Below, piece after piece: positions 25,425 through 54,336 of a DNA stretch of 64,000 nucleotides. Source of the stretch: Protoeuglena noctilucae (lineage: Eukaryota). The stretch covers positions 124,001 through 188,000 of the forward strand of contig OY253673.1 of the NCBI GenBank assembly GCA_958009085.1, in the 5' to 3' direction. The position numbers were made by a program, and so were the translations under genes. The notes under the pieces were generated by a model. That model searched no databases and had not been told where the DNA came from. It saw nothing but the letters and a program-made list of their open reading frames with translations. Numbering within the stretch: the first letter of the stretch is position 1; each line of letters starts with the position of its first letter.

Positions 25425-27052
25425 TTAGAAGGAGTCGCCGAACTTGGCCAGGGACTCGAGGGCGCCGTTGCCCGTGTAGAGCGCCTGGGTGCCAAAGCCG
25501 AAGAAGGCGACCATGGCGAGGCGGGCGTGCTTGATCTCGGCCTCCTTGAGCTTGTCGACCTTGTCCGGGTCACCCGAGGCGAGGCCCAGGGGGTCGAAGT
25601 TGCCGCCGGGGTAGCAGCGGAGGGTGGGGTCGGTCTGGGTGTTGCGGAGGATCTCCACGCCGCCCATGAGGATGACCTCGGCCCACACGACCTGGGTGAG
25701 CGTGAAGGGCAGGTCGAAGCCGAAGTAGGTGAGGCCGTCGAGCTCGACCTTGCCGGCGTCCTGCCACGCCACGCCCGTGGTGCCCTCCGCCACCCACACC
25801 CCCAGGCACGCCAGCATGGCCCAGCGGCCGTGGATGAGCTCGCACTCGCGGAAGCGCTGCAGGCCGAAGACCTCCGAGTAGGGCTGCAGGGACCCCGCCT
25901 CCACCTGGTCCACCACGGGGGAGAAGGAGCCAATGACCTGGCCGGCCTTGTTCACCGCCGCGTTCTGGTCGTTCTCGTCGAGGTCGACCTGGAGGTACTC
26001 CACGGGCTTGGCGAGGCCGAGCGGGTCGAAGCCGCTGCGCGCGGGCGGGGCGGGGGGCGGCGGATCGGGCGGGGCGCAATCAGGCCAGATCCCGCGCGGG
26101 GGGGCGCGCCCGGCGCAGGCGGGCGGGAGCGACGGTCGCGCGGCTCGAAAACGCGACGGAATGCGCGCTCACCGGTCGCCGGGGAGGGAGCCGTCGAGCC
26201 ACTCAGGGATATCAGCGTTGGGGATCCACGTCGGCCGGCCCTCGAACTTGCGGTAGCCAACGCCGCCCATCCGCGTCCCCGAGGACGGCGCCGACGACTT
26301 CTTCGCGGCGACGGGCTTGGGGGCGGGGCTGGCGGCCTTCTTCTCCTTCTTCTGCGGGGGCAGGGGCATCACGCCGCGTCCCCGACACCGCGATGCGCAG
26401 GAGCGAAACGCGTGCGCGACAGAAAGGCCCCGAACATCGACGGGGCTGGCATCCGTGCGCCCGTGAACTCCCGATGGCCCCGCTTAGCCCGAGCAAGCCC
26501 CGGCGGCGACGCTGGCCGTCTGCCGATGGCGAGACAGGCGCGTTCGATGGAAACGATACAGGAACGGCGCACGGAGGCGCCCGGGAGGCACGCCAGCGCG
26601 CCCAAATCGCGCCTCGGGGGGCATCAAGCACAAAATCTCTGCGGGGCGACCGGCCCGACCCCCGCGACGCGGCTCCCGGGCTCCATCGCGCTCGATTCGG
26701 CGCATCCGAGTCCGTGACCGCGCAGGAGGGGGGCCGGGCGGCCCGGGCGGGCCCGCAGGGCGACATGGGCCCCGCCCCGCCTTTATCATTGGCAGGAGAT
26801 ACGCGGGCGGGACACGCGATCCCGCGATCGCTCCCCTCCACCGAACGCGGCGCGAGATAGGAAAGCGGGTCGCGGGGGCAGCGCCTGCCGTCCCGCGCGC
26901 GGCGGGGCCGGGGGAACGGATCGGAGGCCCCGTCTCGCCCAGGCAGCGCCCGGCGCGGGGCCCGGGGAGCGATATTATGACGCTGCGGTGCCACTCACCA
27001 GCACCTTGGTGCCGAACATCCCCCCCATCTTCATCGTGGTCTGGAGCGCCAT
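25425..27052 (-). CDS. LHCB4: Minor PSII antenna chlorophyll a/b-binding protein CP29
   Basis: [20 protein letters not shown]29-specific insert [62 protein letters not shown]. Two introns. Confidence 0.97.
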
Positions 27053-47603: not shown

Positions 47604-47965
47604 AGACGAGTGAAGATGTAACAGAAAGTCGTTTCATGCGAGTGACGGGGTCTGCTTGGATGGGAAGTGCGGCATGAGGGGGGACGTGGTTGGGGCAGGC
47701 TATCTGTCGGTCGCCTTGCTGAGTGTGCACAGGTTTTGATGTGGCAGACTGTTGCAGAGGGATGTTTCAAGCAGTTCGTCGGCCGGTTGCTGCTCAGGGC
47801 TTGTCCCAGACACAGCGGTGGGGCGTGCTGCCCTCGAAAAAAGCTCGATGCAGCCGCCAGGGCAGCAGCAAGGGGCAGGGATGATAAGAGAAAGGCTGCA
47901 ATGGCAGCTCCCGTGCCGCAGTCGAAAAATGCCTCAAAAATGAAAGCCCCGCAAACTCAGCAACC

Positions 47966-50900
47966 CTAACCCCCACCGTCTGAGTGCTTCTGCAGCATTG
48001 CGCGGTAAAGGTCGGTGTCAGTGTCTTGCTCCAATCGACCCCTCGCCCTCCTCCCACTCTCTCCGTCCCACGACCCCTCGCCTTCACGCCCCCGCCCAGG
48101 CATCCACACCCGCCGCCGCCCCACTCCCACGCCACCCCCAGTATGCGAGTCAACCCCACCCGAGGCATCCCGCCGCCCCTCTGCAATGTCCGCGACCACC
48201 TCTCTGCTGCCCCCGCTCCTCAGCCACTCCGCCATACCCCCGCGCCCCTCATCGCTACCAGCTGGCCCCTCCCCATCGCCCACCCCAGCTTTGCCCTCCC
48301 TGTCCCTCCCAGCACCCCTACCGTCGCCCTGCACAGCATCTGCCCCGTCTCCCGCCCCCTCCTCTCCCTCCCGCACCGATCCCAAGGCACCCAAACGCTC
48401 CAGAGGGGTCACTCCGGGCTCTGCCAGCTGCGGCACAGGGACTTCCTCGGCCCTCACCCCAATACGCACCGAGTCTGCCCCTGCCCGCACATGGGCCACG
48501 TGATGGGGGCGGAAGGGTCCGCCAGAGACGACGCGCCGGAGGCCCTCGGGGGGACGGGTGTCGGCACCGCGGAGCTCGCAGGCCAGCCAACAGACGCTGG
48601 CTGCGTAGTTGGTGCTGCGGGGAGGAGTAGTAATGGGTGAGAAAGACATGGGATGAGGGAGGTGCGTAGTGAGGTGTGCAGAAGTATAGTGTACGCGGAG
48701 AGAGGTCTGCGTGTTGGGGAAACTGCAGCGTTTTGCGTGCTTCCGACAGCCCCGCCACGCATGCGTAGGTCTACGCCTCACGCCTGGCTCATGTCACCTG
48801 GGGTTGTAGCTCATGACTGCTCGCCAGTTGGGGCCAGCCAGGAGGCACAGGTCGGAGGGACCGAAGGGCGCCACGAGCTCAGCGACGTCCTGAGGGCCCA
48901 GCGCAGACCCGAACACGCGCAGAGGGCGGTCGCTGTCGGCCAGACTGCGGGCGTCGAGACCGAAGCCCCGGCGGACCCACTCTGACACGGGAGCCTTGCT
49001 CTTGTGCCGGAAACGGCCCTGCGAGGAGCAAGGACGCAGGGGACGTGCGTCACGTGCCGGCGACGGTGCTGGGAGGCTGGGGGCATGCCCCGACCAACGC
49101 TGGCGATGAGTCAGGTTAGCTCTTGCTGGCTTTTGACTAACAAGCCCTGACTTTGCTTGCAACATAAGGCGAGGCATGCAGGTGACCATTGCCCACGCAC
49201 ACTTGCTGCCTCACCAGGGTGTCAGGGCTGGGAGGCACGACGGGTGACCCGAACCCGCGCCCCGCCTCCCAGCCATTCGATTTCAAAAACTGTGCGATGG
49301 AGGCCAGGGCGTCCGCCTGAGATGCCCAGATGTCAGGGCGGCCGTCGCCGTCATGGTCCACCGCGCAACGCAGGAATGCCGACGGCATGAACTGGCACTG
49401 CCCCATGGCGCCTGCCCAGGACCCCACGAGGTCCTGCGCATAAAGAGATAGAGGGATTGGTGTCCAGTGGTGTGCAAGGACTTGAACTACCAAGCAGTGA
49501 GGTCGGACGGCAGCCACGCAGCCACAAAGGAGCAGTGGGCATGAGCTGAGGCACACGTGCAGGCGAGGAGCGACAGCGATACCGGCCCCTCGCCTGTGCC
49601 CTCGCGACCCCCCGCTCCACGATCTGAAGGGCGCAGAGAGCCTCGTCCCGGAAGAAAGCCCCCCTTGCTGCGTCATCCGACAGATACGCCAAATGTAAGA
49701 GGCTCTCTAGGACCGGGAAGTCCCCAGAGAAAGCACCGAAGTCTGACTCGAGTCCCCAAACGGCCACGAGGATCTCCTTTGGCACACCGTAGGCGCTCTC
49801 GATGTCGTGGAGAGTGTCGCGGAGCTCCCACATCAGAGCACGACCACGGGCGATGCGGCCAGGCACGCGCTGCGGGGTGCGGTGGGGCGGGGGTGGGGCA
49901 AGGGTCGTGCGTGGGTTGAGTTGAAGTGGGTGAGGGTGTAGGTGAGGTGAGGGTGGTGCGTGGGGACACATGTGTGAGTTGGGTCGAGTAGGGTGGACAG
50001 TCGACTGTACCCTTGCCAAGCGATGGGTTGGGTCCATTCCACGTGCCTGGCAAACCTGGCCCGCTTCGCTCTCACCGAAAACACGTAGTCCCCCAGTCTC
50101 TGCACGTTCTCCGGCTGGCTCCTCTCGTGGCCCATCACGTCCCGGGGCCCGTCCGTCTCGACAGCAACACCTGCGTCCTCCCCGCCCTCGTCAGCCCCTT
50201 GTGTGCCGTCGACAGGCTCCACGGGCGGACGCACGACACGCAGCGCGCCATGGATCGTCTGCGAAGAGATGTGCGAGGTAGCGTTCATTTGCTGTCCCAT
50301 GAGCTGCAGCAGAGTACTGCCACGACGGCCACCGTCGGCACCCCAGCAGCCATGCATCCTCGTCAGGACCTGTTGCACGCCGCAGTCACCTCTTCAGACA
50401 CTCCCTTTCCACGGGCCTCTTCTCGAAAGGCCTCTAACCACGACTCCCACCGGCTGCACGACACCGCTTGCGGGTCACCGTCCCCTGCCGACCCCTTGGC
50501 AGGGTCCCCGGCGCTTGGAACCTCTTCGTCAGCCTCCTCGCCCGCCTCTCTGCCTTGGGTTCGATCTCCCACATCCTCGGCGCCATCGGGGGGCTGGGAG
50601 ATGTCCACCCCTGTTGGGACCTGCGTCACGGCATCGAGGCAACTCTCGGCGCGCGTTTCCGTGGGCGACAGGGGCACCGGCAGCAAGAGCAGATCGTCCG
50701 CTCTCGCTGATGGGCGCGCGCTGCCGCGCACCTCGCATCCTGCCCTCATCCCGCGCCCAAATGGGTTGTCAGCGACGTCGAAAGCCCATGAGGCCGATGC
50801 GCTGGTGCTGCGGGCCTCAGAGGTGCCGGCACACATCGACATCGTGTGCGCACGCTGCCTCCGGATGGCGGACGCCTTCGCAGAAGCGGCGGGCGGGAAC

Positions 50901-51169
50901 AGCAAGGCCGGCAGCAGGAGGGACGAAGCGACGGCAAAGCGCGCGGCGATCCGTGACCATCGCCGATGGAACGGCACGGAATGCGTTGTATCCATGCATC
51001 CGTGCGTGTCGAGGTCAACGTTGCCCGCTGGAGGGCCCCCGCTGGCGCGAACACGAGCGTCTCGGTCAAGCGCGCGCGACCCTCTGGCGAAGCGGGCAGC
51101 AAGGGCTCGGCTTGCAGCGCCCGGGACAGTCACGCAGCGATGACGTGCCCTCGAGACGCCGCTGTCCAT
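47966..51169 (-). CDS. mltB: MltB-type lytic murein transglycosylase (SLT_2 family) with a putative plastid-targeting presequence
   Basis: Six exons: WL..FREEARGKGVSEETI..AL, ERSQPE, YGVPKEILVAVWGLESDFG (catalytic Glu), FFRDE, GSWAGAMGQCQFMPS, DHDGDGRPDIW (EF-hand-like), DALASIA..L..NGW, NWRAVMSYNPSTNYA. Start is 51169 or 50995. Confidence 0.9.
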
Positions 51170-51578
51170 CAGGACTGCCCTCTATTCGCATCAGGGGCCA
51201 TTAACAAGCAAAGAAAGGACGCTGCGGGCCTCGGTCGAGCGCAGCTGAGAACCTGGCCTGCCAGTGGACGATCCGCATTAACGCGTGATTGGGGACAGTT
51301 GCAAGATACTGCTGTTGGCTGCTCCAAAGAGCACTCGCAGACATGCTGCACGTGCCAGTGCCGGGTAAACGTGGTCTGGATGCGGACACAAGGCCATATG
51401 TGACCTGTCGAGAACCCACTCTTGCGCCAGCGAACGGCATCACACCCTCCGTCCTCCCATCTACCGCTGGAGCCAAGCTTGGCTTGGACCGTTCTAGTGG
51501 CTAAGCCTTCTGCCTCTGGGCCTCCCAGACAAGGCAGTCTTGATCGCGGCTCTCTGCCTGCAAGACATCCTTGCCGGC

Positions 51579-54336
51579 ATGGCGAGCGTCGCCTGCGGGG
51601 TCGAGGCGACTGCGGCGCGCGCCGTGTTCCGCAACATCCGCCGTTGCAGCGCGGTCTGCGCTCCGCGGGGCCCTCTAGCCAAGCGCAATGCAGTCGTTAG
51701 CGACCAGCAGCGCTCGCACCGGTCCGGGTTAAGGCATCCCAGGGGCGGCGCAGCTGTGGCAAGAGCGACGCCCTCCGTGACCACGGCCGCGAGCACCGAG
51801 AGGACCCAAGCGGCACTCGACCTGCTCGCCTGGCTTGTGGAGAAGAAGGGCGTCCCGCCACAGGTAAGCGGGGCATCGCACGCGCTGCTCGCCTCAGCGG
51901 AGAGGCCGCTGAGCAGCTCCCGTTAGCCAGCCCTGCGCCCTCCTCCTGGCGTCTCTTCGCCATCCGCATCCGCGATGGCCCAAGATCGTCAAAGTTGCTA
52001 CTCTCTCGCAGGCTGCCGAGCCGCGTACGGTGCAGGACAGGGAGCTCGGGGCCACACCGCGCACGGCACTGTGCACCACGCGAGACGTGCCAGGAGGCCA
52101 GGTGGTGCTGGAGATGCCCGGCGATGTGTGCATTACGGCAGTCGACGCTCAGAAGAGCGCCGTGGCACCTCTCGCGGAGGGCAGGTGCGGCGCTGGGCTG
52201 CAGCCAAGCGCTGCAAGCCCATTTCGCGCCCAGGACTAGCATCAGCCAGTCTCTGCACCGCTGCCGCAGGTCGGAGCTGGTGCAGCTGGCTCTGTGGCTG
52301 ATGCACGAGCGGGGCGAGGGAGAGCAGTCGGCGTATCGGCCTCTGGTGGCCAGCCTCCCGCAAGGCACGCTGAGCCCGCTGCTGTGGACCGAGGCGGAGC
52401 GGGCAGACCTCCTCCGGGGCTCACCGATCCTCGTAGAGGCCGAGAATCGATTGGCCGGTGCGTCCCGGGGCCCATGGGGGCCCTGACACGCCATTTCCAC
52501 CACCCCCAAGAGAGCCGCCTCGTGCCTCACTTCTTGCCCTGGCCATCCGTGCTCCGTTTAGACACCATGCGCGCCCTGCCTAGCCCTGCCTGTATGCACC
52601 ATCGCCTCTGCCCCTGCCCCGCAGCGCTTCGCAAGGAGTGGGCGTCGATCGAGGAGCTCTGCGCCCAGGACCCGTCGCGCTTCCCTCCCGAGAGGTTCAC
52701 GTTCGATTCCTTCCTGAGGAGCTTCTGCGTCGTGCTCGCGCACTCCACCTTCCTCCCGTCCGCCGAGTGCTTCGCCCTCGTGCCCCTCCTGGGGTGGGCG
52801 AAGAAGACATGTGAGGGTTGCGAGGATGTTTGTCAGAACTGGTGTCGGCTTTTGCAAACAGGGCAGGCCAACGTCACTGAATGTCTGCATCTGACGGTGT
52901 TTCGGATGCCGTGCTTTCTGTCCGTCTCTGATGCGTGCACAGCTGCACCATCATTCCATCCCTGGTGCCCTTGCCCCCAGGTGCTGCTGGCGCATGTGGG
53001 GTGGACTACGACCCCGAACGCGGCTCGGTGATCGTGGTGGCGGACCGGATGGTCCGGGCCGGGAACGAGGTGGCGTTGTCAGACGGGCGGCCCAACGCGG
53101 AGATGCTGCTGGCGTGTGGGTCGGTCGAGACGCCCAACCCGGCGGACTATTTGGACTTCGAGGCGTCCCTGGTGGCCGCGGACCGGATGTACCAGCTGAA
53201 GAAGCAGGTAGTGGAGCAGGAGGGCTTCAAGGACCGTCAGGCGTTCCCGGTCTATGAGGACCGCATGCCCACGCAGATGCTGGCGTACCTGCGCCTGAGC
53301 CGGGTGCAGGACGCTGGGCAGCTGGCGTCTGTCAGCTTCAGCAAGGACACCGGTGAGGGATTAGATGTTGGGACATGTAGCTCAGTGATAATGCCCATGT
53401 GCGCATCCAGGGACGCTGACCTCGCCACCGTGATACTCTAGGTCTTACCTCCTGTTGTAACTGCTTGCCATGCTCCAACATCGCCTCCCTGCCGCAGTGG
53501 TGTCTCAGATGAACGAGTATGAGATTCTGCAGCTGCTGATGGGGGACTGCCGAGAGAGGCTGGCGCAGTACAAGAACAACGCCGAGGAGGACACCAAGAT
53601 GCTGCAGGCGAGGGCTGATGGTGCACAGTGAGCCAAATGTAAGGGGCGAGTGGGCGCGGGCAGGAGGACATGCGGGCAGCTGTCGTGCGGGGAGGTGGCA
53701 GTGGCGTTCATGGGCTCTTACTACGCGACGTGTACTGCATGTATATCGTTAGGCCGCAACTAGCGTGCTTCGCAGGACCCCTCGTTGGCTGCCAAGGACC
53801 GCCTGGCGTGTCAGATGCGGTTGGTGGAGAAGCGCATCATTAGTGGCTTCATGGATGGCGTGCGGAGGTGAGTGCAACTGGCGCAGCGTAGCTGTCGATG
53901 CAAGCGCGACGCACTGCCTGGTGGTGTGTTTGACATGATCGGCAGAGATGGGTGCCTGACCGGCGTGGTTCGTTTCCTGCAGGAGACTGGCGCCCATCCG
54001 GGGCATCCCCACCAAGGCCGGCGGCATGCAGGACCCGAACGCCGACATCCAGGAAGTCTTTGACATCATCGAGGTGACTGCTGATCGTCGCGGTCTTTGT
54101 CGTTCCACCCCTCCGTTCCCATCTGCCACTGTCGACTCACTTCCTGCACTCCCTGCACCCCCTGCGCAGCTCTGCATCTCTCCCCCTGTCATCTGATCCA
54201 CCTAAGCCTTCGTTCGCACTCGCAGAGCATCCCGGAAGCCCCCAAGAAGTTCATGGACGGTTTCATGCGTTGGGCGCGAGGGGAGGACGACCCCGAGTGG
54301 AACGCCAGGGGCAAGGGCAAGGGCAGGAAGGGGTGA
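51579..54336 (+). CDS. Chloroplast Rubisco-LSMT-family SET-domain protein lysine methyltransferase-like protein
   Basis: Transit peptide, LALWLMHER, SPLLWTEAE...LLRGSP, FALVPL, RPNAEMLL..G, LAYLRL and a helical substrate-binding C-terminal domain. Eight introns. Confidence 0.85.

What the first reader, a model, noticed from the sequence alone, without database searches (positions are those of the whole stretch)
47966..51169. Nuclear, spliced MltB-type peptidoglycan lytic transglycosylase with a bipartite presequence, suggesting a peptidoglycan layer in this alga's plastid
Seen: an intact MltB/SLT_2 catalytic domain (WGLES catalytic Glu, SWAGAMGQxQFMPS, DxDGDG loop, YN.S..YA) split by five spliceosomal introns and flanked by eukaryotic genes, so contamination is unlikely. 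Its N-terminus is an Ala/Arg/Ser-rich segment followed by RR..hydrophobic..ASA. The C-terminus has no recognisable peptidoglycan-binding domain. Established: MltB cleaves bacterial murein; plastid peptidoglycan is known in glaucophytes and moss, and pathway genes are patchily retained in chlorophytes. Inference: the protein is sent to the plastid envelope space to remodel murein during division. Alternatively it is a horizontally acquired, secreted antibacterial or bacterivory enzyme.
Basis: partly seen in the sequence, partly recalled or inferred. Interest (0 to 1): 0.78.

Follow-up and report, generated by a model that had tools for sequence, protein, structure and literature searches.

The report
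Green-alga nuclear MltB-type murein hydrolase
A marine green alga's nuclear genome carries an expressed, intron-containing gene for a bacterial-type cell-wall-cutting enzyme of the kind reported to be needed for chloroplast division in moss, which fits the idea that this alga's chloroplast still keeps a thin bacterial-type wall.

Summary
On the minus strand at 47966-51169 lies a nuclear gene for an SLT_2/MltB_2-type (family 3) lytic transglycosylase. Pfam SLT_2 hits exon 4 at 4e-24 and exon 5 at 2.7e-30. The catalytic Glu and the other named motifs are intact, and the neighbouring genes are eukaryotic. Marine metatranscriptome contigs show the spliced mRNA. The five introns that split the catalytic domain are all borne out, one of them GC-AG, and a sixth intron lies in the N-terminal region. 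The protein has a basic 73-residue N-terminus, then a hydrophobic segment ending ASA, and no peptidoglycan-binding domain.

It is not an orphan. The same architecture and a rare 3-residue loop insertion occur in proteins of Pedinophyceae, Cymbomonas, Chlorokybus, Selaginella, Riccia and Psilotum. Most of these lineages are reported to keep the plastid peptidoglycan pathway. Trees neither recover nor reject one green clade. A moss MltB homologue has already been linked to chloroplast division (Utsunomiya et al. 2021; that paper was not readable here).

Best reading (0.62): a plastid-envelope murein-remodelling enzyme. Mur/PBP genes of this alga, the start codon and the targeting could not be checked. 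Verdict: a new member of a known kind, of moderate interest.

The parts
47966..51169 (-). Coding span of the MltB-type gene: 7 exons, 738 codons plus a stop. The transcript contig reaches at least 51280 at the 5' end.
   Evidence: Gene model. RNA contig X1 record 2 (1919 nt) covers 48375-51280 with the introns removed.
50732..51169 (-). Exon 1: presequence, hydrophobic segment and the start of the linker.
50951..51169 (-). N-terminal 73 residues. Ala/Arg/Ser-rich and net basic (13 R/K, 6 D/E, 11 S/T, 11 A), so transit-peptide-like.
   Evidence: Codon-position GC does not settle whether this stretch is translated.
50879..50950 (-). Hydrophobic segment IAARFAVASSLLLPALLFPPAASA (residues 74-97). 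It is preceded by HRRWSR and ends in ASA, so it is either a signal peptide or a membrane anchor.
   Evidence: best 19-residue window has Kyte-Doolittle 1.74. Comparable segments occur in 8 of the 10 homologues tabulated there (not in the partial Psilotum transcript; P0298 is unnamed).
50993..50995 (-). Alternative in-frame start, Met59. Using it would leave only a classical signal peptide.
   Evidence: Read from the sequence.
51189..51280 (-). Transcribed leader with three out-of-frame upstream ATGs, at 51278, 51201 and 51191.
   Evidence: with transcript extent.
50621..50731 (-). Intron 1: 111 nt, GT-AG, phase 0. It lies outside the catalytic domain and was not predicted from the sequence.
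   Evidence: Joint 50618>50730 (cut +2) in X1 and X3.
50390..50620 (-). Exon 2: acidic linker and the start of the SLT_2 domain (RWESWLEAFREEARGKGVSEE).
50259..50389 (-). Intron 2: 131 nt, GT-AG.
   Evidence: Joint 50258>50390 in X1.
50076..50258 (-). Exon 3.
   Evidence: tblastn to P0002; RNA pieces.
49870..50075 (-). Intron 3: 206 nt, GT-AG.
   Evidence: X1 record 2 pieces 49593-49866 and 50076-50258 adjoin. Three letters are left unplaced by a repeat filter.
49594..49869 (-). Exon 4: holds the catalytic Glu (WGLES, codon at 49747-49749) and the 3-residue insertion LAYLSDDAARGAFF.
   Evidence: Pfam 4e-24; alignments to solved structures; insertion.
49434..49593 (-). Intron 4: 160 nt, GC-AG (GCGAGG...GCAG).
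   Evidence: Joint skipping 160 nt in X1, X2 and X3. Pfam profile positions run on from 146 to 148 across it.
49215..49433 (-). Exon 5: GSWAGAMGQCQFMPS (49380-49424) and the DHDGDGRPD loop (49332-49358).
   Evidence: Pfam 2.7e-30.
49019..49214 (-). Intron 5: 196 nt, GT-AG.
   Evidence: Joint in X1 and X2.
48798..49018 (-). Exon 6: C-terminal half of the domain.
   Evidence: Aligns to P0104 and P0002.
48615..48797 (-). Intron 6: 183 nt, GT-AG, phase 2. It splits the YNP|STNYAAS motif.
   Evidence: Joint in X1, X2 and X3.
48566..48614 (-). Start of exon 7: end of the catalytic domain (TNYAASVCWLACELRG).
47966..48565 (-). C-terminal tail of about 200 residues, rich in Gly/Glu/Arg/Asp and of low complexity, plus the stop codon. 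It has no family hit and no counterpart in homologues. Its reality as coding sequence is unsure.
   Evidence: no family; 219 residues follow the last YN, against 21-39 in the other green proteins.

Best explanation
This is a nuclear gene of a marine green alga that encodes a family-3 (MltB/SLT_2; CAZy GH103 from recall) lytic murein transglycosylase.

Proposed mechanism, with each step marked:
1. The mRNA is made and spliced. SHOWN.
2. The protein starts at Met1. Its basic 73-residue presequence takes it across the plastid envelope. The following hydrophobic segment then either anchors it in the inner envelope membrane or, after cleavage behind ASA, releases it. INFERRED.
3. The catalytic domain ends up in the intermembrane space, which is the topological equivalent of the bacterial periplasm. 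INFERRED.
4. There the conserved Glu cleaves MurNAc-GlcNAc bonds of a thin plastid peptidoglycan layer, producing 1,6-anhydroMurNAc ends. This allows strands to be inserted, turned over and split during plastid division. INFERRED from the bacterial enzymes and from the reported moss phenotype.

It belongs with, or very near, a Viridiplantae-wide group of MltB-like proteins that share this architecture.
For: Domain and catalytic motifs.

Nuclear, spliced and expressed:
- Six introns are removed in metatranscriptome contigs that match the window with 0 other letters.
- The DNA-like run X5 covers the introns and shows no joints.
- Neighbouring genes are eukaryotic.

Shared architecture:
- The window protein and the full-length green homologues have a 44-120-residue net-basic N-terminal stretch before a hydrophobic 19-mer (Kyte-Doolittle 1.6-2.2). 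Sampled bacterial proteins have 0-44 residues there.
- None of the green proteins carries PG_binding_1, while most of the bacterial hits do (Pfam columns).

Shared indel:
- The spacing from the catalytic-Glu motif to GSWAGAMG is 55 residues in 317 of the 370 sequences in which both motifs were found.
- It is 56-61 in all 11 green rows.
- The only bacterial rows at 57 or more are the 3 members of the P0122 cluster.
- In the L-INS-i alignment the +3 insertion sits at the same place in all 9 green rows.

Trees:
- Window + Pedinophyceae has support 99/91. Chlorokybus + Cymbomonas + land plants has 100/95.
- One clade of all nine is not rejected: p-AU 0.398 on the careful tree and 0.932 on the 74-row quick tree.

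Phyletic fit with peptidoglycan-retaining lineages.

Precedents:
- Moss MltB and VanY homologues are cited as important for chloroplast division. The title of Utsunomiya et al. 2021 appears in reference lists.
- DipM, a nucleus-encoded murein hydrolase, is located in the intermembrane space of glaucophyte plastids and is required in moss (PMC4015805).
Against: - The careful trees do not unite the window/Pedinophyceae pair with the plant clade. This holds in 0 of 200 bootstrap trees, both with and without the three longest bacterial branches. The pair instead attaches weakly to bacterial rows (70/86 and 84/61).
- The window protein has an odd amino-acid composition and a long branch.
- Mur/PBP genes of this alga could not be looked for.
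- The start codon is unproven. There are three upstream ATGs in the transcript, and Met59 would give a plain ER-type or Tat-type signal peptide. Codon-position GC does not show that codons 1-58 are coding.
- The RR before the hydrophobic core resembles a thylakoid Tat signal.
- The best 80 prokaryotic relatives are proteobacterial by title (78) or unnamed (2), at 31-40% identity, and none is cyanobacterial. There is therefore no endosymbiont pedigree. The two search patterns used could, however, have missed divergent cyanobacterial forms.
- I could not read the moss paper or compare directly with the PpMltB sequence.
Confidence: 0.62

Rival explanations
1. A secreted or cell-surface antibacterial or bacterial-feeding enzyme. 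Translation starts at Met59. The RR-hydrophobic-ASA segment then acts as an ER signal peptide, and the enzyme degrades the walls of bacteria outside the cell or in a food vacuole.
For: - From Met59 the N-terminus is a textbook signal peptide: 15 residues, a hydrophobic core, then ASA.
- Three upstream ATGs could divert ribosomes past Met1.
- One family member is from the bacterivorous alga Cymbomonas (PMC5741210).
- The nearest prokaryotic relatives are proteobacterial rather than cyanobacterial.
Against: - The same long presequence plus hydrophobic segment is found in non-phagotrophic land plants, namely Selaginella and Riccia.
- The family tracks lineages that keep peptidoglycan synthesis.
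- The transcript includes Met1.
- Lytic transglycosylases need access to the glycan strands and are poor external bacteriolysins against intact Gram-negative cells (general knowledge).
Confidence: 0.13
2. A relic enzyme in an alga that no longer makes peptidoglycan. It would be kept for another role, such as acting on another glycan or a structural or regulatory role, in the way Arabidopsis keeps MurE without the full pathway.
For: - Partial retention of pathway genes without a full pathway is documented in chlorophytes and seed plants (PMC4815162; PMC10784329).
- The window protein is divergent, with a long branch, and has gained a tail of about 200 residues of unknown use.
Against: - All catalytic and substrate-binding motifs of a working family-3 enzyme are intact.
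- The gene is expressed and correctly spliced in natural marine samples.
Confidence: 0.13
3. A thylakoid-lumen protein. The stromal transit peptide is followed by a twin-arginine (cpTat-type) lumen signal that is cleaved after ASA.
For: HRRWSR, a hydrophobic core and ASA together match the general form of lumen-targeting signals (sequence; the form of the signal is from recall).
Against: - The RR pair is not conserved in the other green-lineage sequences read.
- No murein substrate is known in the lumen.
- The land-plant members have a hydrophobic segment followed by basic residues, which looks more like a membrane anchor.
Confidence: 0.06
4. Bacterial contamination or a mis-assembled bacterial gene.
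For: The protein family is overwhelmingly bacterial.
Against: - Six spliceosomal introns are removed in RNA.
- The base composition matches the flanks.
- Eukaryotic genes lie on both sides on one contig.
- Bacterial-style gene calls on this DNA (P0262) and on a relative's DNA (P0001) read through into introns.
Confidence: 0.01

Closest known systems
Moss plastid MltB homologue (PpMltB; Utsunomiya et al. 2021, Plant Mol Biol 107:405, PubMed 33078277)
   Same: A nuclear gene of a green-lineage organism for an MltB-type peptidoglycan hydrolase, tied to chloroplast division. Non-seed plant proteins found here (Selaginella, Riccia, Psilotum) share with the window protein the presequence plus hydrophobic segment, the +3 loop insertion, and the lack of a PG-binding domain.
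   Different: - I could not read the paper or obtain the PpMltB sequence. What it shows is taken from its title in reference lists, one secondary sentence and my recall of the abstract.
- The window protein is from a marine chlorophyte-grade alga and is only about 40-45% identical to any relative outside its own pair.
- It lacks the land-plant 'GP' insertion and has an extra C-terminal tail of about 200 residues.
- It does not fall inside the plant clade in ML trees.
Bacterial MltB_2 subfamily (NCBIfam TIGR02283), with Pseudomonas aeruginosa SltB3 (PDB 5ao8, 5anz) and 7qvd as solved examples
   Same: Same catalytic fold family. The catalytic Glu, GSWAGAMGQxQF, the DxDGDG loop and the YN.S..YA motif are all present. 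SltB3 is the best solved match to the Pedinophyceae homologue (E 7e-45). 7qvd is the best match to window exon 4 (5e-10).
   Different: - Most of the bacterial proteins carry a C-terminal PG_binding_1 domain (PF01471) and a short signal peptide. The alga's protein has neither. It has a long presequence and six introns instead.
- Identity to the best prokaryotic species representatives is 31-40% (measured against the Pedinophyceae protein).
Escherichia coli MltB / Slt35 (PDB 1ltm, 1d0k and others)
   Same: Family-3 lytic transglycosylase with the same catalytic motif region (NCBIfam TIGR02282 and NF008029 hits).
   Different: A more distant subfamily, with lower scores than MltB_2 (51 and 74 bits against 81 and 94). 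E. coli MltB is an outer-membrane lipoprotein (from recall).
DipM of glaucophyte and moss plastids (PMC4015805)
   Same: A nucleus-encoded murein hydrolase imported into the plastid intermembrane space and needed for plastid division. It is the functional precedent for the proposed role.
   Different: An unrelated fold (LysM plus LytM/M23 peptidase). It cuts peptide links, not glycan strands.

Membership tests
SLT_2 / MltB family-3 lytic transglycosylases (Pfam PF13406) | Match to the SLT_2 profile above Pfam's gathering score | tested here: met
   Exon 4 scores 85.8 bits and exon 5 scores 106 bits, against a cut-off of 24.3. The profile positions run on from 61-146 to 148-214.
SLT_2 / MltB family-3 lytic transglycosylases (Pfam PF13406) | Catalytic Glu in the WG-x-E-S/T motif | tested here: met
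   WGLES aligns with WGVES of 7qvd, WGMES of SltB3 and GVET of SltB1. That this Glu is the catalytic acid is from recall of the Slt35 and SltB literature.
SLT_2 / MltB family-3 lytic transglycosylases (Pfam PF13406) | GSWAGAMGQxQFMPS motif, DxDGDG loop and C-terminal YN.S..YA motif | tested here: met
   All three are present and aligned with homologues. The last motif is completed only after the RNA-supported removal of intron 6.
SLT_2 / MltB family-3 lytic transglycosylases (Pfam PF13406) | Releases 1,6-anhydromuropeptides from peptidoglycan | not testable with these tools
   Needs an enzyme assay.
NCBIfam TIGR02283 MltB_2 subfamily | Whole-protein score at or above the curated cut-off of 248.45 bits | tested here: inconclusive
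MltB_2 is the best-scoring model for both. The spliced protein was not scanned.
Green-lineage plastid MltB-like proteins (moss PpMltB type; Selaginella, Riccia, Psilotum, Chlorokybus, Cymbomonas) | Falls in one clade with the plant and algal members | tested here: inconclusive
   Not recovered in the careful trees: 0 of 200 bootstrap trees in each. Not rejected by AU tests: p 0.398, 0.932 and 0.772 (three green rows).
Green-lineage plastid MltB-like proteins (moss PpMltB type; Selaginella, Riccia, Psilotum, Chlorokybus, Cymbomonas) | Extra residues in the loop after the catalytic Glu (LA..[+3]..R..F) | tested here: met
   Present in all 9 green rows at the same alignment position. The motif spacing is 56-61 in the green rows against 55 in 317 of 370 sequences, and only one bacterial cluster (P0122, 3 rows) reaches 57 or more.
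Green-lineage plastid MltB-like proteins (moss PpMltB type; Selaginella, Riccia, Psilotum, Chlorokybus, Cymbomonas) | Long N-terminal presequence followed by a hydrophobic segment, with no PG_binding_1 domain | tested here: met
   if translation starts at Met1, which is not proven.
Green-lineage plastid MltB-like proteins (moss PpMltB type; Selaginella, Riccia, Psilotum, Chlorokybus, Cymbomonas) | Plastid (envelope) localisation | not testable with these tools
   No targeting predictor and no experiment were available.
Green-lineage plastid MltB-like proteins (moss PpMltB type; Selaginella, Riccia, Psilotum, Chlorokybus, Cymbomonas) | Co-occurrence with MurA-G, MraY, MurJ, Ddl and PBP in the same genome | not testable with these tools
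   No whole genome is held for this window. No other peptidoglycan gene was found in the 64 kb. The Pfam scans of open frames did not cover frames shorter than 110-135 residues, nor most long frames between about 31.6 and 36 kb.
Green-lineage plastid MltB-like proteins (moss PpMltB type; Selaginella, Riccia, Psilotum, Chlorokybus, Cymbomonas) | Direct similarity to the characterised PpMltB sequence | not tested
   The sequence was not on hand, and the paper is not held.

The most novel reading that the evidence does not exclude
The enzyme of the window alga and of Pedinophyceae is a second, independent capture of a proteobacterial MltB_2 gene. It would be separate from the gene shared by streptophytes and Cymbomonas. 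It would then have converged on the same solution: a presequence plus membrane segment, loss of the PG-binding domain, and a lengthened loop next to the catalytic Glu. That would mean plastid-wall hydrolases were replaced by horizontal transfer within the green algae.
Probability: 0.2. Interest if true: 0.6.

Novelty: new member of a known kind. Interest (0 to 1): 0.45.

Why it matters
Whether green-algal plastids still carry a peptidoglycan layer has so far been judged almost entirely from biosynthetic (Mur/PBP) genes. A wall that is built must also be cut. This gene gives a degradative marker that is expressed in natural marine communities. It extends the moss MltB story to chlorophyte-grade algae. 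Together with the homologues found here, it also shows that an MltB-like hydrolase with a common architecture is spread across Viridiplantae lineages that keep the pathway. It offers a concrete handle for testing plastid-wall remodelling in a marine alga through localisation, inhibitors and an anhydromuropeptide assay. It is not a new kind of system.

Tried and rejected
Calls that failed or gave nothing:
- Whole-genome search for SLT_2 and the Mur genes: no genome is held.
- First Pfam call with wrong exon coordinates: error, corrected.
- Alternative GT donor for intron 4 (at 49608, a 175-nt intron): rejected by Pfam profile continuity and by the 160-nt RNA joint. An off-by-one-codon version of the GC donor was corrected.
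It was redone with A2.
- Profile search with the green alignment A3: only 1 of the 120 listed hits was a named eukaryote (the query's own P0002), and even P0104 dropped out. Only 8000 word-sharing candidates were scored, so this says little.
- AU test on the 139-row set: not finished after three runs and abandoned in favour of thinned sets.
- Earlier scan notes: nothing for this genome, sequence or topic.

Ideas dropped:
- 'GQCQF' as a green-lineage signature: dropped, because 45 stored proteins carry it, many of them bacterial.
- Codon-position GC as a test of whether codons 1-58 and the C-terminal tail are coding: no clear signal.
- RNA cover of the tail: no RNA contig covers 48040-48374, a G-rich stretch on the mRNA strand. 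RNA contigs do cover 47800-48039. No contig joins across the gap, so neither a further intron nor continuity can be claimed.
- Search for copies of the introns, or of 49860-50300, elsewhere in the window: none.

Literature:
- 0 papers hold 'lytic transglycosylase' + peptidoglycan + chloroplast + 'green algae'.
- 17 papers hold 'lytic transglycosylase' + plastid + peptidoglycan. 52 hold 'lytic transglycosylase' + chloroplast, of which 30 were listed. By title, none of those listed deals with a plant or algal enzyme.
- One search was badly framed and uninformative.
- The library lacks most subscription journals, so this is not proof that nothing is in print.
Full report
**What is there**

The window is 68% G+C throughout. 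On the minus strand between 51169 and 47966 there is a set of open blocks. Their translations match the SLT_2 domain of MltB-type lytic transglycosylases.
- Pfam PF13406 hits the block at 49594-49869 at 4e-24 and the block at 49215-49433 at 2.7e-30.
- NCBIfam TIGR02283 (MltB_2) scores best among the NCBIfam models.
- The Glu of WGLES aligns with the corresponding Glu of the solved enzymes 7qvd, SltB3 and SltB1.
- The last 215 residues hit no Pfam or NCBIfam family at E up to 0.1.

**Gene model and expression**

From the sequence I predicted five introns. One was ambiguous between a GT donor and a GC donor.

Four marine metatranscriptome runs from one study hold 19-50% of the locus's sampled words. 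Four runs labelled with one organism hold all of them. I laid the contigs of three RNA runs and one full-holder run on the locus. All laid pieces matched with 0 other letters.

| Intron | Coordinates | Length | Evidence |
|---|---|---|---|
| 6 | 48615-48797 | 183 | joint in X1, X2, X3 |
| 5 | 49019-49214 | 196 | joint in X1, X2 |
| 4 | 49434-49593 | 160 | joint in X1, X2, X3 |
| 3 | 49870-50075 | 206 | one 1919-nt contig bridges it; three letters unplaced by a repeat filter |
| 2 | 50259-50389 | 131 | joint in X1 |
| 1 | 50621-50731 | 111 | joint in X1, X3; not predicted from sequence |

- The 160-nt skip fits only the GC-AG reading of intron 4 (GCGAGG...GCAG). This agrees with the continuity of Pfam profile positions.
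- The full-holder run X5 covers the introns and shows none of these joints.
- The gene therefore has seven exons and 738 codons.
- All the RNA evidence comes from one study and at most three samples.

**Context**

Pfam scans of long open frames found eukaryotic genes on both sides: Med6, DEP/Duc1, a DEAD-box helicase, DTW, a Rubisco-LSMT-like protein and PWWP (150 frames of at least 110 residues from 36-63 kb). Further away lie an FAA hydrolase, a His-tRNA synthetase, a chlorophyll a/b-binding protein and a CHY zinc-finger protein. One search covered the first 150, by position, of 169 frames of at least 135 residues. The other 19 were not scanned in that call. Most of them lie between about 31.6 and 36 kb, a few had already been scanned, and the last two (beyond 62.7 kb) were never scanned. 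Contamination is excluded.

**The ends of the protein**

Residues 1-73 are rich in Ala, Arg and Ser, with 13 R/K against 6 D/E. Residues 74-97 are hydrophobic and end in ASA.

Two cautions apply to the start:
- The transcript contig reaches 51280 and contains three out-of-frame upstream ATGs.
- An in-frame Met59 would leave only a classical signal peptide.

Codon-position GC does not settle which start is used. After the catalytic domain comes a low-complexity tail of about 200 residues that no homologue has. RNA contigs do not cover 48040-48374, so I leave the tail open.

**Relatives**

The first searches found two eukaryote-type hits among bacterial MltB_2 proteins: 27 hits from 338 candidates, and the best 120 of 1524 hits.
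- P0001 is an unnamed close relative, 75% identical over exon 4. It is a gene call that reads through introns.
- P0002 is a 586-residue protein of Pedinophyceae sp. YPF-701.
- P0104 is a EukProt protein labelled jgi/Chlat1. I read that code as Chlorokybus atmophyticus from recall.

An exhaustive phmmer search with exon 4 gave 2170 hits at E up to 0.001, of which the best 150 were listed. Among them were longer proteins that match without the usual 3-residue gap. Their sources name them as follows:
- Selaginella moellendorffii (two loci)
- Riccia fluitans
- Psilotum nudum
- Cymbomonas tetramitiformis

Three further clusters are unnamed. The ESM Atlas holds a 53-member cluster, 83% Eukaryota and mostly Streptophyta, automatically named glycoside hydrolase family 103.

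**What unites the green proteins**

1. *Architecture.* In every full-length member, 44-120 net-basic residues precede a hydrophobic segment. Sampled bacterial proteins have 0-44 residues there.
2. *Domain loss.* None has PG_binding_1, which most bacterial hits carry.
3. *A loop insertion.*
   - In a 146-row alignment, the stretch after the catalytic Glu is 52 residues long in 4 rows and 49 in 136. The 4 rows are the window protein, P0002, P0104 and bacterial P0122.
   - By motif spacing, 317 of the 370 sequences in which both motifs were found have 55 residues. All 11 green rows have 56-61. The only bacterial rows at 57 or more are the three members of the P0122 cluster.
   - In an L-INS-i alignment the +3 insertion is at the same place in all nine green rows, and the land plants add a further 'GP'.

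**Trees**

Rows left out of the trees:
- P0001 (intron read-through)
- L040 (no clean open frame)
- P0410 (near-duplicate)
- P0298 (truncated)

Bacterial rows were then thinned by path distance to sets of 51, 43 and 40 rows. The trait columns were excluded from the later trees.

Results:
- Window + Pedinophyceae is always a supported pair: 97, 98, 99/91 and 99/94.
- Chlorokybus + Cymbomonas + land plants form a second supported group: 96 and 100/95.
- The two groups are not joined in the careful trees. This holds in 0 of 200 bootstrap trees, with and without the three longest bacterial branches.
- The window pair instead attaches weakly to bacterial rows.
- AU tests do not reject a single clade. 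On the careful tree p is 0.398 and the constraint costs 6.5 log-likelihood units.
- On the quick trees p is 0.932 and 0.772. There the constrained tree was the better one, because the free search was shallow.
- The window protein has a long branch and a skewed composition.

So the tree is inconclusive. The indel and the architecture favour one family.

The best 80 species-representative prokaryotic loci are 31-40% identical to the Pedinophyceae protein. By their titles, 78 are proteobacterial and 2 are unnamed. None is cyanobacterial. The scan used only two peptide patterns, so divergent forms could have been missed.

**Fit with what is known**

From passages read in each paper:
- Selaginella and mosses have the complete peptidoglycan pathway. 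So do M. pusilla and class III and VII prasinophytes (PMC4815162).
- Cymbomonas is predicted to have a complete synthesis set (PMC5741210).
- DipM, a nucleus-encoded murein hydrolase, sits in the plastid intermembrane space of a glaucophyte and is needed for division in moss (PMC4015805).
- None of these papers, nor the review PMC10784329, mentions a lytic transglycosylase.

Two plant papers do cite Utsunomiya et al. [quoted passage not shown] A third paper says that MltB and VanY homologues in moss matter for chloroplast division (PMC13075712). The paper itself is not held. My memory of its abstract is that it names lytic transglycosylase MltB and reports chloroplast localisation of fusion proteins and macrochloroplasts in knockouts. 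That is recall only.

**Reading**

The most likely role (0.62) is a plastid-envelope murein-remodelling enzyme. The presequence would carry it across the envelope. The hydrophobic segment would anchor it, or be cleaved after ASA. The catalytic domain would then act in the intermembrane space.

Shown: the domain, the motifs, splicing, expression, and the shared architecture and indel. Inferred: the start at Met1, the targeting, the substrate, and the presence of a wall in this alga.

Rivals:
- a secreted antibacterial or feeding enzyme made from Met59 (0.13)
- a relic without a murein substrate (0.13)
- a thylakoid-lumen protein (0.06)
- contamination (0.01, refuted)

**Novelty**

A plant MltB is already in print, so this is a new member of a known kind. 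What is added here:
- an expressed member from a marine chlorophyte-grade alga
- RNA-verified gene structure, including a GC-AG intron
- the observation that MltB-like proteins with one architecture and one rare indel occur from prasinophytes to lycophytes and fern allies
- the open question of whether the window/pedinophyte type is the same gene or a second capture

I found no paper on algal members. The library lacks most subscription journals, and I opened no supplementary files.

Noticed in passing
window 49434-49593 (-): A GC-AG intron (donor GCGAGG) is confirmed by RNA joints in three runs. A high share of GC donors is reported for Micromonas pusilla CCMP1545 (PMC4815162 abstract). I did not measure how common they are in this genome.
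   Followed up: partly
window 49901-50257: In the DNA-like run X5 this 357-nt stretch (intron 3 plus exon 3) is a separate contig at about twice the depth of its flanks (487 against 234-254). An 89-letter loose end diverges at 50257. This suggests a second copy or variant elsewhere in the genome or sample. No copy lies inside the window.
   Followed up: partly
window 51189-51280 (-): There are three out-of-frame upstream ATGs in the transcribed leader. The one at 51191 opens a 41-codon frame that overlaps the main ATG. This may influence the choice between Met1 and Met59.
   Followed up: no
window 51580-53438 (+): A divergently oriented neighbour begins about 410 bp from the MltB ATG. Its N-terminus looks like a transit peptide (MASVACGVEATAARAV...). 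It has a Rubisco-LSMT substrate-binding domain further on. The two genes probably share a bidirectional promoter region.
   Followed up: no
window 48040-48374 (-): This very G-rich stretch (on the mRNA strand) of the C-terminal tail has no RNA contig in any of the three RNA runs, although both flanks are covered. Contigs stop at 48039 in two runs.
   Followed up: no
window 25428-26168 (-): A chlorophyll a/b-binding protein (Pfam 2e-35) is readable over about 188 residues in one open frame, so it is apparently without introns there.
   Followed up: no
P0122 / P0429 / P0430 (unnamed bacterial-type proteins, 344 aa): This is the only bacterial cluster seen with the same +3 loop length as the green-lineage proteins. 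It has a plain signal peptide and groups with uncultured Alphaproteobacteria (L012). It may mark the donor lineage, or it may be a parallel insertion.
   Followed up: partly
P0412 (Selaginella EFJ28954.1, 1366 aa): One Selaginella gene model in the same 90% cluster is 1366 residues long, against 450-453 for the others. It is probably a fused gene model.
   Followed up: no
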